Shown: positions 1,530 through 4,500 of the stretch, one piece after another
Layout: the number at the start of each line of letters is the position of its first letter
Position numbering within the stretch: position 1 is the stretch's first letter
NCBI RefSeq assembly: GCF_030013205.1
Contig: NZ_CP122648.1
Reading direction: 5' to 3' (one strand)
Length of the DNA: 64,000 nt
Origin: Escherichia coli
Lineage (GTDB): Bacteria; Pseudomonadota; Gammaproteobacteria; Enterobacterales; Enterobacteriaceae
Program-made: the position numbers

Positions 1530-4500
1530 TCATCAATGAAGGATACATTAATTTTACGTTTATTATGATGAATCCTCTGCAAATGAGCGAAATTTGATAG
1601 AACATTTATCTGCTGTACGATTTAATGAACTTAATGATACAGCATTACAAAAACAATCGAAGTTTATAAAGATGATTTCTGGTTGACCAGAACCCTACCC
1701 TACAATGGTGACTAATTTTATTACTCTCGAAGGAGATGATGATATGAATATATCATATGTGAATAGCAACAAAATGACATCTTTACCTGTTGAGCTAGAT
1801 GCACTAAATAATAAAGATATCTCTTATTCCAAAGATTTTTCTTATGCCAAAGATTTCTTTTTATATATAGAAACACAGTTAAAAATTGCAAAAGATTTTT
1901 GTAGACCAGGAGAGGAAGTATCAAGATCTATTGCAAATAAAGTTTTTCATGCATTTATTGATTTAGTTAACAAAATCAGAGGCAAGAAAGATTGTATGTA
2001 TATTTGCACACTTTGCTGTTTTGCCGAGGAGGTTAAAGGTGATTATTCTCATTACAGGACCTTTTTATTTGATATTGGTAATCAATATAAGGTTAAACTT
2101 ACACAAAGCGGAAAAAAAGAGTTCTCTTTAACATTAGAATTTAACGATACTATAATTGAATCTCAGAAAGTCACAGGCAATAAGGCAAAGCATATTCTTG
2201 AGGATATAGAAATATTCTATCGTAACAAACCCGATACTTATTATTAAATTTAATAATGGTTAGATGTGCAGAAATTATTACTCCACACGGTAAAACAGGG
2301 AAAAGCACTCCAGAACATTGGGATAAACTTAACAAGTTAGAACTAACAACGTTTTATTACCTCTCACGTAGAACGATGGCATCAAAAAAATCATCTATAA
2401 AGCAAGAGTGAAAGCGACGACAGTTTAATTTCACTGCAGGCTGGATAACTCCAGCCTGCTTTCCTGCATTACATCACCGCAGCAAACGCCTTTGCCACAC
2501 GTTGTACATTTGCCGTATTTAACCCGGCGACACACATGCGACCGCTGGCGATGAGATAGACACCAAATTCTTCACGTAGTCGGTCAACCTGAGCGGCACT
2601 TAAACCGGTATAACTGAACATGCCGCGCTGATTAAGCAGATAATCGAAATTGCGTTCTGGCATCTCTGTGCTTAATACCTTCACCAGTTCCTGACGCATT
2701 GCCAGAATGCGAGTACGCATCTCTTCTACTTCCGCCAGCCAGCTGGCTTTCAATGCCTCGTCATTCAGCACTGCAGCCACCACCTGCGCACCAAAATTCG
2801 GCGGGCTGGAGTAGTTGCGGCGAACTGTTGCTTTCAATTGCCCCAGTACGCGGCCTGCAGCTTCGGCATCTTCACACAGAACAGAAAGTCCGCCAACGCG
2901 CTCGCCGTAAAGGGAGAAAATTTTCGAGAACGAATTGCTCACCAGAGCGGGTAATCCAGCGCTGGCAATGGCGCGAATGGCGTAGGCATCCTCTTCCATA
3001 CCGGCACCAAATCCTTGATAGGCAATATCAAGAAATGGGATAAGCTCGCGGGCTTTGAGAATTTCAATCACCGCATCCCACTGGTTATTAGTGAGATCGG
3101 CACCCGTTGGGTTGTGGCAACATGGGTGGAGCAACACAATACTGCGGGCAGGTAATGTTTTTAGCGTCGCCAACAGGTCATTAAAGCGCACGCCGTTAGT
3201 CGCTTCGTCATACCAGGGGTAAGTACTCACTTCGAATCCAGCCCCGGCGAATATTGCTACGTGGTTTTCCCAGGTAGGATCGCTGACCCAGACGCCTGAT
3301 TCCGGGAAGTAGCGTTTCAGGAAATCTGCGCCCACTTTCAATGCCCCTGAGCCGCCAAGGGTTTGAATGGTTGCTACGCGCTGTTGTTGCAGTACCGGAT
3401 GGTCGGCACCAAACAGCAGCGGCGCAATGGCATGGCGATAGCTATTAAGCCCTTCCATCGGTAAATAAAGCGAAGCGCCATGAGGCTGCGCATTCAGGCG
3501 CGCTTCCGCATCCGCCACGGCTTTCAGTTGGGGAATAATTCCGTCTTCGTTGTAGTACAGACCGATACTTAAATTCACTTTGTCGCTGCGAGGGTCTTCT
3601 TTGAAACGCTCCATAAGCGTAAGAATCGGGTCGCCAGCGTAGGCGTCAACTTTTTGAAACACGCGATGGTTCTCCAGGTTTACGGGCAGGTGGTTAAAAC
3701 ACAATAAACCGGAAGAAGGCGAAGATCGAGTGGATGTTCAGGGGCGAACGGCAATTAGCAACAGAGTGAGACTCATGACAAACGTACATCCGCCAGAGGC
3801 ACGGCCTTCATAAGAGCATGAAAGAATATCAACTTATTGAATTGGTAGGATTTTATTGGCCGGATAAGGCATTCACGCCGCATCCGGCACAAACAATCAA
3901 ATATTACAGAACGATTAATCCACGTATTTCATCGCGACCCTTGAAGTCAGGCGCGTAATAAGTTCGTAAGCGCTTACTTTCGTCATTTCAGCGATACGTT
4001 CTACGGGCAAACCTTCGCCCCATAAAATGACCGGGTCCCCGGCTTTGTCCTGCGCCTGTGGACCTAAATCTACGCAGATCATATCCATCGCCACGCGCCC
4101 GACAATCGGCACTTCGCGACCGTTCACCAGCACTGGCGTACCCGACGGCGCGGCGCGCGGATAACCATCGCCATAGCCCATCGCGACTACGCCCAGGCGG
4201 GTATCACGTTCGCTTACCCAAGTTCCACCATAACCGACAGGCTCTCCGGCTTTATGCTCACGCACGGCAATCAGGCTGGAGGTTAGTGACATCACTGGCT
4301 GACAGCCAAAATCGGCACCGGTGGAGCGATCTTCCAGCGGAGAGACGCCATAAAGAATGATGCCCGGGCGCACCCAGTCAAAATGCGACTGTGGCCACAG
4401 CAGAATGCCACCCGACGCGGCAATGGAACGTTGACCTGGTTTGCCTTCACAAAAGGTATTAAAGATAGCGAGTTGTTTCTCGGTTGCGTCGCATTTTGGT

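What the first reader, a model, noticed from the sequence alone, without database searches (positions are those of the whole stretch)
1705..2247. AT-rich islet between aphA and tyrB with competing sense/antisense ORFs
A 180 aa plus-strand ORF with protein-like composition overlaps a 67 aa minus-strand ORF (1721-1924) whose translation is dominated by residues expected from AT-rich DNA read in a wrong frame. The local base composition is much more AT-rich than the flanking core genes, suggesting horizontally acquired DNA. Which strand, if either, is coding is unresolved from sequence alone.
Basis: seen in the sequence. Interest (0 to 1): 0.4.

Follow-up and report, generated by a model that had tools for sequence, protein, structure and literature searches.

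The report
Full-length yjbS gene in AT-rich islet
The AT-rich patch between aphA and tyrB is a roughly 1 kb inserted islet of E. coli carrying the intact 167-residue form of yjbS, a gene of unknown function that strain K-12 has only as a frameshifted 67-residue stump; the plus strand is the coding one and the antisense ORF is a chance product.

Summary
In detail: both ORFs sit at the stated coordinates, in DNA of 27-32% GC between aphA and tyrB (about 50-55% GC).

The plus-strand ORF is the coding one. It is the full-length allele of K-12 yjbS, most likely 167 aa from the ATG at 1744, which has an AGGAG Shine-Dalgarno 8 nt upstream.
- K-12 lost G1901, giving a 67-aa stump. O157 lost 10 bp at an A7 run. 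Other strains have further frameshifts there.
- Support for the plus frame:
  - ORF length P=0.0004 in shuffles.
  - dN/dS 0.4-0.6.
  - Only 18-bp in-frame indels among intact alleles.
  - No stop-creating change among 83 substitutions.

The minus 67-aa ORF is not yjbS; the equal length is coincidence. Its dN/dS is about 1.1, and a change synonymous in the plus frame closes it in some strains.

The islet (about 1480-2435) is present in 4331 of 5426 complete E. coli genomes. Salmonella lacks it (186-bp spacer), and B2-type strains carry the KguSR island at the same junction. Published ChIP data show H-NS on the K-12 allele.

The protein has no homologue outside Escherichia/Shigella, no family match and no significant fold match. 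Function is unknown. The result is mainly an annotation insight, of low to moderate interest.

The parts
630..1343 (-). aphA (class B acid phosphatase), left flanking core gene, divergent from the islet ORF
   Evidence: ORF of 237 aa. RefSeq annotation of homologous loci. dS 0.031 and dN 0.0021 among 12 strains.
1344..1479 (.). Conserved aphA-proximal spacer (aphA upstream region), not part of the insert
   Evidence: Alignable with the B2 (KguSR island) allele, the short-spacer allele, the IS1 allele and Salmonella up to about window 1475-1482.
1480..2435 (.). AT-rich inserted islet (about 955 bp), variable among E. coli and absent from Salmonella
   Evidence: GC 0.27-0.32. Present in 4331 of 5426 complete genomes. 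Alternative contents at the same junction. Salmonella spacer of 186 bp.
1705..1743 (+). Thirteen in-frame codons upstream of the probable start (first ATG of the 180-aa ORF); probably 5' UTR
   Evidence: No Shine-Dalgarno sequence lies before 1705 (seen in sequence). The exact 167-aa product is on record on at least 1000 contigs and the 180-aa product on 92.
1731..1735 (+). Shine-Dalgarno AGGAG, 8 nt before the ATG at 1744
   Evidence: Sequence CTCGAAGGAGATGATGATATGAAT.
1744..2247 (+). Full-length yjbS coding sequence (167 aa plus stop); K-12 yjbS starts at the same ATG
   Evidence: K-12 yjbS maps to window 1744 on the + strand. Open in 12-13 of 16 sampled alleles. dN/dS 0.41 pooled and 0.61 site-wise, p=0.03. 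ORF length P=0.0004. None of 83 substitutions creates a stop.
1813..1848 (+). Two tandem 18-nt repeats (KDISYS / KDFSYA), the source of the only in-frame indel polymorphism (167 versus 161 aa)
   Evidence: the repeat finder D1. 18-bp deletions in L002, L004, L011, L012, L017 and L018.
1896..1901 (+). TTTTTG site; loss of G1901 gives the K-12 67-aa YjbS
   Evidence: Alignments. The exact K-12 62-mer is in 1410 complete genomes.
2109..2118 (+). CGG plus an A7 run (A7 = 2112-2118), a recurrent frameshift hotspot
   Evidence: A6 in K-12, L017 and L027. 10-bp deletion of 2109-2118 in O157, found in 309-325 genomes.
1721..1924 (-). 67-aa antisense ORF; judged non-coding
   Evidence: dN/dS 1.05-1.12. 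Closed in L003, L015 and L016 by C1848T, absent at 45 aa or more in O157, 50 aa in K-12. An ORF of at least 67 codons appears in 35% of shuffles. No family hits.
2256..2411 (+). 51-aa ORF downstream of yjbS; judged non-coding
   Evidence: 1-2 bp indels at about 2289, 2335 and 2352 change the frame among strains. No family hits.
2436..2459 (.). 10-bp-stem hairpin between the convergent yjbS and tyrB; probable terminator (function inferred)
   Evidence: RNA fold of -20.1 kcal/mol, z = -4.9. Diverged counterparts sit at the same position in the B2, short-spacer and Salmonella alleles.
2469..3662 (-). tyrB (aromatic amino acid aminotransferase), right flanking core gene, convergent with yjbS
   Evidence: RefSeq annotation of homologous loci, 397 aa. 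dS 0.060 and dN 0.0042.

Best explanation
**What is shown**
- Window 1480-2435 is a roughly 1 kb AT-rich islet inserted between the aphA upstream region and the tyrB terminator in the E. coli/Shigella lineage.
- It carries one real protein-coding gene on the + strand: the intact, full-length allele of yjbS (167 aa from ATG 1744).
- The gene is restricted to this lineage, evolves fast under weak purifying selection, and is being lost repeatedly. Losses include deletion of G1901 in the K-12 group, frameshifts or a 10-bp deletion at the A7 run, and IS1 insertion or deletion.
- The 67-aa antisense ORF is a by-product of the sequence and is not a gene.

**What comes from the literature or is inferred**
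- As with other AT-rich foreign DNA in E. coli, the islet is bound by H-NS. This is published for the K-12 allele; that it is silenced as a result is inferred.
- I therefore infer that the gene is little expressed in ordinary culture. That would explain both the weak constraint and the frequent decay.
- The product is predicted to be a soluble cytoplasmic alpha+beta protein of about 19.5 kDa with a disordered Ser/Asn-rich N-terminus. Its biochemical role is unknown.
For: **Identity**
- K-12 yjbS (67 aa) maps to the + strand at window 1744 and matches the N-terminal part of the long ORF.

**Coding signal in the + frame**
- An ORF of at least 167 codons in 32%-GC DNA has P=0.0004 in shuffles.
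- AGGAG lies 8 nt upstream of the ATG.
- The ORF is open in 12-13 of 16 distinct alleles that differ by up to about 12% in protein. The only indels among intact alleles are 18 bp, whereas the flanking non-coding islet shows 1-, 2- and 16-bp indels.
- Pooled NG86 dN/dS is 0.41 in the + frame, against 0.86-1.32 in the other + frames.
- The site-wise count is 25 synonymous to 49 non-synonymous, against an expected synonymous fraction of 0.236 (p=0.031).
- None of 83 substitutions creates a stop (3.3 expected, P=0.035).
- AlphaFold gives a compact fold, pTM 0.61.

**Decay**
- The K-12 allele is in 1410 genomes and the O157 allele in 309-325.
- Further A-run frameshifts occur in L017 and L027.
- IS1 events were found (and H36).

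**Insertion**
- The islet is absent from Salmonella and from about 1070 E. coli genomes.
- Those genomes carry the KguSR island, a short spacer or IS1 at the same junction (PMC3694859).

**H-NS**
- The K-12 tyrB/yjbS spacer is listed as an H-NS-bound 'promoter island' associated with foreign genes (PMC3661553).
- yjbS is scored 'essential only by TraDIS', alongside the ETT2-remnant genes ygeF, ygeG and ygeN (PMC5821084). I read this as insertion-poor, H-NS-covered DNA; that reading is my own inference.
Against: - Selection is weak and the tests are only marginally significant (p about 0.03-0.05). Alleles are phylogenetically related, so the pooled pairwise dN/dS is not independent evidence.
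- Diversity in the ORF (pi 0.048) is higher than in the upstream non-coding spacer (0.029).
- No homologue exists outside Escherichia/Shigella among 1.84 billion representatives. There is no family or significant fold match.
- No expression or proteomic evidence was found.
- The AlphaFold model is of modest quality and unstable: the five models have pLDDT from 64.5 down to 39.
- H-NS binding is known only for the K-12 allele and only from the literature.
Confidence: 0.8

Rival explanations
1. Neither strand codes today. The + ORF is the relic of a gene that was already dead or useless when acquired, and it stays open in many strains only because too little time has passed. The islet then matters, if at all, only as H-NS-bound spacer DNA.
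For: - dN is 10-20 times that of the flanking genes, and omega is 0.4-0.6 with p of only about 0.03.
- There are at least four independent frame disruptions plus IS1 events.
- About 40% or more of islet-bearing complete genomes carry a disrupted allele.
- There are no homologues and no known domain.
- In K-12 the region behaves as silent, H-NS-bound DNA (PMC3661553).
Against: - With dS about 0.10, neutral decay should have produced stop codons: 3.3 expected, 0 seen.
- Neutral decay should also give out-of-frame indels at the density seen in the flanks. About 8 events occur in roughly 480 bp of flanking islet, against none in the 12 intact alleles.
- The excess of synonymous change is specific to the + frame.
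- A good Shine-Dalgarno sequence is retained.
- The model has a compact predicted fold.
Confidence: 0.15
2. The 67-aa minus-strand ORF (1721-1924) is a real small gene, either alone or overlapping the + gene in antisense.
For: - It is open (61-67 aa) in 11 of 16 sampled alleles.
- When synonymous codons of the + ORF are permuted, an antisense ORF of at least 67 codons arises in only 1.1% of trials. Its length is therefore somewhat unusual given the + protein.
Against: - dN/dS in its frame is 1.05 pooled and 1.12 site-wise, with no synonymous excess.
- C1848T, synonymous in the + frame, truncates it in L003, L015 and L016. No ORF of at least 45 aa is there in O157, and it is 50 aa in K-12.
- It starts with TTG, and I saw no Shine-Dalgarno sequence before it.
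- Its composition is 22% Leu and 12% Tyr.
- An ORF of this length appears in 35% of dinucleotide shuffles.
- There are no family hits.
Confidence: 0.03
3. The + gene encodes a specific accessory function. It could be an orphan immunity-type protein (the C-terminal beta-sheet domain resembles CdiI) or a type III secretion substrate (Ser/Asn-rich disordered N-terminus; the islet is absent from B2 strains, which by my own recollection also lack ETT2).
For: - There are weak hits to the PipB2 N-terminal domain, VirA and SipA.
- The N-terminal 30 residues are predicted to be disordered and have no acidic residue in the first 16.
Against: - None of these matches is significant.
- There is no toxin, cdi, rhs or secretion gene next to the ORF; it sits alone between aphA and tyrB.
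- The model is of modest confidence.
- The ETT2 correlation is recalled from memory, not tested, and could simply reflect phylogeny.
Confidence: 0.08

Closest known systems
E. coli K-12 yjbS (b4621; UniProt YJBS_ECOLI, 67 aa, uncharacterized)
   Same: It has the same locus, strand and start codon. The first roughly 52 residues correspond, apart from a 6-residue repeat unit that K-12 lacks.
   Different: - The window allele is 167 aa.
- K-12 lost G1901, reads 15 out-of-frame codons and stops, and has a second 1-bp loss in the A7 run.
- K-12 YjbS is thus a truncated remnant, not the reference form.
H-NS-bound AT-rich 'promoter islands' / xenogeneically silenced islets of E. coli (Ozoline group, PMC3661553)
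   Same: - The K-12 tyrB/yjbS spacer is one of the 78 listed promoter islands.
- That island is H-NS-bound in two ChIP-chip data sets and associated with predicted foreign genes.
- The window islet is 93-94% identical to it.
   Different: - In the window, most of what is 'intergenic' in K-12 is the intact C-terminal two thirds of the ORF. By my coordinate conversion the K-12 island maps to about window 1968-2285; this is an inference.
- A simple sigma-70 consensus scan found no more promoter-like sites than composition predicts: 6 found against 5.8 expected.
KguS/KguR alpha-ketoglutarate utilisation island of UPEC (CFT073 c5032-c5041; PMC3694859)
   Same: It occupies exactly the same aphA-tyrB junction and is mutually exclusive with the yjbS islet.
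   Different: It is 13.5 kb and about ten genes of known function, with no sequence relationship to the yjbS islet. The 'distant' blastn search found no match in those genomes.
AT-rich, fast-evolving, short ORFan genes of E. coli (Daubin and Ochman 2004; cited from my own knowledge, not retrieved)
   Same: The gene is lineage-restricted, AT-rich and single. It has a raised dN/dS and patchy presence, and its donor is unknown.
   Different: No phage link could be shown here: tblastn against 50,697 phage records and the PHROGs search were both negative.

Membership tests
yjbS locus / YjbS protein | Lies between aphA and tyrB, divergent from aphA and convergent with tyrB | tested here: met
   RefSeq annotation of K-12-like, O157 and other records aligned to the window.
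yjbS locus / YjbS protein | Same start codon and N-terminal sequence as K-12 YjbS | tested here: met
   K-12 CDS start maps to window 1744. MNISYVNSNK...QLKIAKDF is shared.
yjbS locus / YjbS protein | Product of 67 aa, as in the reference annotation | tested here: not met
   The window product is 167 aa (180 from the first ATG). The 67-aa length in K-12 results from deletion of G1901.
Protein-coding gene under selection (+ ORF) | ORF longer than composition allows by chance | tested here: met
   P=0.0004 in 5000 dinucleotide shuffles.
Protein-coding gene under selection (+ ORF) | Excess of synonymous over non-synonymous change, specific to this frame | tested here: met
   dN/dS 0.41 pooled and 0.61 site-wise (p=0.031). 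The other frames give 0.86-1.4, apart from the complementary frame that shares third positions. The signal is weak.
Protein-coding gene under selection (+ ORF) | Reading frame kept across strains | tested here: inconclusive
   The frame is kept in 12-13 of 16 sampled alleles, with only 18-bp indels. It is broken in the K-12 group (1410 genomes), the O157 group (309-325 genomes), L017 and L027.
Protein-coding gene under selection (+ ORF) | Evidence of transcription or translation | not testable with these tools
   None of the 13 papers that mention yjbS gives expression data.
Horizontally acquired, H-NS-silenced islet | Base composition deviates strongly from the flanking core genes | tested here: met
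   GC 0.27-0.32 against 0.47-0.58.
Horizontally acquired, H-NS-silenced islet | Presence/absence polymorphism and absence from an outgroup at a conserved junction | tested here: met
   Present in 4331 of 5426 genomes. Alternative inserts occupy the same junction. Salmonella has a 186-bp spacer.
Horizontally acquired, H-NS-silenced islet | H-NS occupancy and silencing | not testable with these tools
   Literature only, and for the K-12 allele: PMC3661553 Table 1, code 'K' (Kahramanoglou and Oshima ChIP-chip).
Horizontally acquired, H-NS-silenced islet | Identifiable donor or mobility genes | tested here: not met
   No integrase, att-like repeats or tRNA in or beside the roughly 1 kb islet. No phage or genuine plasmid match. 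No homologue outside Escherichia.
Promoter island (high density of promoter-like sites) | More promoter-like sites than expected | tested here: not met
   The simple sigma-70 scan found 6 sites against 5.8 +/- 2.7 in shuffles. The published definition uses a different program (PlatProm), which was not available.
CdiI-type / polymorphic-toxin immunity protein | Significant fold or sequence similarity, and an adjacent toxin gene | tested here: not met
Type III secretion effector | Homology to a known effector, or a validated secretion signal | tested here: inconclusive
Small protein gene (minus 67-aa ORF) | ORF conserved, with purifying selection in its own frame | tested here: not met
   dN/dS 1.05-1.12. 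Closed or shortened in L002, L003, L004, L015 and L016.

The most novel reading that the evidence does not exclude
- The intact 167-aa YjbS may be a functional, lineage-specific protein with a fold not yet seen. It could be a secreted (ETT2 or LEE type III) substrate or an immunity or anti-toxin-like factor, kept silent by H-NS and switched on only in a host or competitive niche.
- Its repeated loss in K-12, O157 and other lineages, through a homopolymer hotspot, would then be adaptive or phase-variation-like rather than neutral decay.
Probability: 0.08. Interest if true: 0.5.

Novelty: already known. Interest (0 to 1): 0.25.

Why it matters
- **Annotation.** The reference gene yjbS of E. coli K-12 is a frameshifted remnant.
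  - In all seven RefSeq records I checked where the 167/180-aa ORF is intact, the annotation labels it a 'frameshifted' pseudogene, sometimes together with an 83-aa fragment.
  - The probable reason is that the truncated K-12 protein serves as the reference. This is worth correcting.
- **Reinterpretation.** One published 'promoter island' of K-12 turns out to be decayed coding sequence of a foreign gene.
- **Locus.** The aphA-tyrB junction is shown to be a replacement hotspot (yjbS islet, KguSR island, short spacer or IS1).
- **Limits.** No new mechanism is revealed, and the protein's function remains unknown.

Tried and rejected
- **Family searches.** Pfam, NCBIfam, PHROGs and PADLOC gave nothing for the + product, the minus ORF or the 51-aa ORF. 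The only hit was a noise-level BamG match at E=0.033, 13 bits against a cut-off of 250.
- **Exhaustive phmmer against 1.84 billion representatives.** It returned only Escherichia fragments. Two giant repeat proteins (P0073, P0076) matched through a 'GKKHFSLTIFF' repeat and were rejected as junk translations.
- **Genome-contig scan.** The only hit, in a 'Flavobacterium paronense' assembly, is an error-rich K-12-like contaminant contig.
- **Phages and plasmids.** tblastn against phages found nothing. Of the eight hits in the plasmid collection, seven are chromosome-sized or large (0.37-4.9 Mb) E. coli records, apparently misfiled; the eighth is a 17-kb Klebsiella oxytoca plasmid record carrying a K-12-type yjbS, which I did not follow up.
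- **Other sequence features.** Rfam found nothing above noise. There are no flanking direct or inverted repeats suggesting a mobile element.
- **Chimeric hits.** Database proteins P0048, P0050, P0052 and P0053 fuse yjbS to unrelated sequence. I regard them as assembly chimeras, not homologues.
- **Divergent AphA contigs.** L025 and L027, which carry divergent AphA, turned out to be E. coli-type islets with further frameshifts, not outgroup species.
- **Considered and dropped.** The idea that the minus 67-aa ORF is the annotated yjbS because the lengths match: it is not.
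Full report
**1. The observation**

The window is E. coli chromosome in the order yjbQ, aphA, spacer, tyrB, alr, all on the minus strand.
- GC drops to 0.27-0.32 between about 1500 and 2400, against 0.47-0.58 in aphA and tyrB.
- In 5000 dinucleotide-preserving shuffles of the 1125-bp spacer the longest ORF averaged 63 codons. An ORF of at least 167 codons occurred with P=0.0004, and one of at least 67 codons in 35% of shuffles.
- The long ORF is therefore far beyond chance and the short one is not.

**2. Identity**

A megablast of the spacer against 5426 complete E. coli genomes found it in 4378, and 4327 of those matches cover at least 80% of the query.

In K-12-type records the annotated gene under the match is yjbS. 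It lies on the same strand as the long ORF and starts at the ATG that corresponds to window 1744.

The alignment of four alleles shows what happened:
- **K-12.** It lacks one 18-nt repeat unit (in frame), has lost G1901 and has lost one A of the A7 run at 2112-2118. The G1901 loss shifts the frame and gives the 67-aa YjbS.
- **O157.** It lacks a differently placed 18 bp and the 10 bp at 2109-2118, giving 119 aa.

So K-12 YjbS is a truncated form of the 167-aa protein encoded here. That it has the same length as the minus-strand ORF is a coincidence.

The likely start is 1744:
- AGGAG lies 8 nt upstream of it, and there is no such signal before 1705.
- The exact 167-aa sequence is on record on at least 1000 contigs and the 180-aa form on 92. 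Every copy is called 'hypothetical protein', in E. coli and Shigella.

RefSeq annotation is misleading. In seven records where I verified that the ORF is intact (L001, L003, L013-L016, L018), it is annotated as a roughly 220-bp 'frameshifted' pseudogene. In two of these (L003, L014) an 83-aa C-terminal CDS is annotated as well. I infer that this happens because the truncated K-12 protein serves as the reference.

**3. Which strand codes**

I aligned 16 distinct islet alleles.

*Plus frame*
- It is open (167 or 161 aa from the Shine-Dalgarno-preceded ATG) in 12-13 of them.
- Among intact alleles the only indel in the ORF is the 18-bp repeat unit at 1813-1848. The non-coding parts of the islet carry 1-, 2- and 16-bp indels.
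- Pooled Nei-Gojobori estimates give dS 0.100, dN 0.041 and dN/dS 0.41. The other two + frames give 1.32 and 0.86.
- Counting each segregating change once gives 25 synonymous and 49 non-synonymous changes. The neutral synonymous fraction is 0.236, so omega is about 0.61 with p=0.031.
- Across 15 alleles, disrupted ones included, none of 83 substitutions creates a stop in the + frame (3.3 expected, P=0.035).

*Minus 67-aa frame*
- dN/dS is 1.05 pooled and 1.12 site-wise.
- C1848T is synonymous in the + frame (GCC to GCT) and puts a stop into the minus ORF in L003, L015 and L016. The ORF is also shortened in K-12 and absent in O157.
- One point in its favour: when synonymous codons of the + ORF are permuted, an antisense ORF of at least 67 codons arises in only 1.1% of trials. 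I treat this as a minor unexplained oddity that the comparative data outweigh.

*Conclusion*

The + strand codes and the minus ORF does not. Constraint on the + gene is weak: in the same strains dN is 10-20 times that of aphA (0.0021) and tyrB (0.0042).

**4. The islet as an insertion**

Contents of the aphA-tyrB junction differ among genomes:
- The 'distant' blastn search finds the islet in 4331 of 5426 genomes and nothing in about 1070.
- B2-type genomes carry a 13.5-kb island at the same place. It encodes a sensor kinase, a sigma-54 regulator, a 2-oxoglutarate dehydrogenase, sucCD, a DASS transporter and an oxidoreductase. This is the published KguS/KguR island, 'inserted between tyrB and aphA' (PMC3694859).
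- Nineteen genomes have a 336-bp spacer with an unrelated 200 bp.
- One genome has IS1 in place of the islet.

All alleles share the aphA-proximal roughly 135 bp (window 1344 to about 1479). All have a hairpin just after tyrB, and the sequence between differs.

In Salmonella enterica the spacer is 186 bp. It consists of the conserved aphA-proximal part joined directly to the tyrB hairpin.

The islet (about 1480-2435) is therefore an insertion in the E. coli lineage. No donor could be found: there is no phage or genuine plasmid match, no mobility gene and no flanking repeats.

**5. Decay**

- The exact K-12 62-mer across the G1901 deletion occurs in 1410 genomes.
- The O157 10-bp deletion occurs in 309-325 genomes.
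- L017 and the metagenomic L027 carry further independent frameshifts at or next to the A7 run.
- Database proteins P0017 and P0028 show double frameshifts.
- IS1 sits in or replaces the islet in some strains (and H36). IS1 also inserted into yjbS during macrophage adaptation of K-12 (PMC4999529).
- In an evenly spaced sample of 39 islet-bearing records, about 21 have the annotation pattern that I verified as intact in 7 of 7 checked cases, 13 are K-12-type and 3 are O157-type.
- Roughly half of islet-bearing complete genomes therefore keep the gene. The collection is biased towards laboratory and outbreak strains.

**6. Regulation (from the literature, not tested here)**

- The K-12 tyrB/yjbS spacer is one of 78 'promoter islands'. 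It is bound by H-NS in the Kahramanoglou and Oshima ChIP-chip data sets and is associated with predicted foreign genes (PMC3661553).
- By my coordinate conversion that 318-bp island corresponds to about window 1968-2285. This is the part of the ORF that is out of frame in K-12.
- yjbS is scored 'essential only by TraDIS', in a list that also holds the ETT2-remnant genes ygeF, ygeG and ygeN (PMC5821084). It also appears with them in a colistin TraDIS screen (PMC9687012). I read this as insertion-poor, H-NS-covered DNA rather than a real phenotype; that reading is my own inference.
- My simple sigma-70 scan found no excess of promoter-like sites over composition.
- The hairpin at 2436-2459 (-20.1 kcal/mol, z = -4.9) lies between the convergent yjbS and tyrB. 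It probably terminates both, which is an inference.

**7. The protein**

- It is 167 aa, 19.5 kDa, pI 7.6, with no hydrophobic segment and 11% Lys.
- AlphaFold, run with an 8-sequence alignment, gives pLDDT 64.5 and pTM 0.61.
  - Residues 1-30 are disordered.
  - Helices fall at 28-51, 61-77 and 84-92.
  - A five-stranded sheet spans 95-144, followed by a helix at 146-161.
  - The five models vary widely.
- No significant structural neighbour was found.
  - The best Foldseek hit is CdiI of K. pneumoniae 342 (E=0.36).
  - hmmsearch of PDB sequences gives SipA as best hit at E=0.75.
- There is no Pfam, NCBIfam, PHROGs or PADLOC family.
- No homologue exists outside Escherichia/Shigella in 5.8 billion clusters or in 1.84 billion exhaustively scanned representatives.
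- Function is unknown. The immunity-like and effector-like readings are leads only.

**8. Verdict**

The finding is real, but the locus is already catalogued as yjbS, a hypothetical protein in an H-NS-bound foreign islet.

What this analysis adds:
- The + strand is the coding strand.
- The window carries the ancestral full-length allele, and K-12 and O157 carry remnants.
- RefSeq mislabels intact alleles.
- The antisense ORF is spurious.
- The junction is a replacement hotspot.

Interest is low to moderate. Novelty: already known.

Noticed in passing
window 1344-2468, compared with L020/L022 (NZ_CP018979), L005 (NZ_AP027764) and L019 (NZ_CM149868): The aphA-tyrB junction is a replacement hotspot with mutually exclusive contents. 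These are the roughly 1 kb yjbS islet (4331 genomes), the 13.5-kb KguS/KguR alpha-ketoglutarate island (B2-type genomes), an unrelated 336-bp spacer (19 genomes), or IS1. All share the same left junction near window 1480.
   Followed up: yes
L001, L003, L013-L016, L018 (RefSeq records): NCBI's annotation calls the intact 167/180-aa ORF a 'frameshifted' pseudogene of about 220 bp. In L003 and L014 it adds an 83-aa C-terminal CDS. I infer that the truncated K-12 YjbS is the reference protein.
   Followed up: yes
L005 4612-6132; L010 near 3501; L022 1263-2821: Some strains have two extra genes, pnuC (nicotinamide riboside transporter) and an AAA-family ATPase, between alr and tyrB. The window and K-12 lack them, and their presence is independent of the yjbS islet (L010 has both).
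   Followed up: no
L001 787-1500 (NZ_CP028192): The record whose islet is 100% identical to the window has aphA flagged as a pseudogene with an internal stop. In the window aphA is an intact 237-aa ORF (630-1343).
   Followed up: no
window 1721-1924 (-): When synonymous codons of the + ORF are permuted, an antisense ORF this long arises in only about 1% of trials. Yet the ORF shows no selection signature and is closed in some strains. This is a minor unexplained excess.
   Followed up: partly
window 2128-2156 (+): A near-consensus sigma-70 promoter-like site (TTAACA, 17 nt, TATAAT; 11 of 12) lies inside the C-terminal part of the ORF, pointing towards the 3' end of tyrB. It falls within the stretch that corresponds to the published K-12 'promoter island'.
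   Followed up: no
window about 3850-3895: A REP/BIME-like palindromic sequence (GGCCGGATAAGGCATTCACGCCGCATCCGGCAC) lies in the tyrB-alr spacer. I recognised it from the sequence and did not test it.
   Followed up: no
L006 (NZ_JAUFQN010000013.1, 'Flavobacterium paronense' CECT 8460) and L025 (GCA_041363775.1): These contigs carry a K-12-type uvrA-yjbR-yjbQ-aphA-yjbS-tyrB region with many frameshifts. L006 is most likely E. coli K-12 contamination assembled from error-rich long reads.
   Followed up: partly
P0050 (ENA metagenome protein): This chimeric predicted protein joins an N-terminus that looks like a sigma-54-type response regulator to the middle of YjbS. It could be an assembly chimera of the two alternative alleles at this locus, or a real recombinant junction.
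   Followed up: no
L027 3761-4714: This metagenomic E. coli-like contig has an islet 97% identical to the window, but its AphA is only 90% identical and diverges in the C-terminal half. That suggests recombination within aphA.
   Followed up: no
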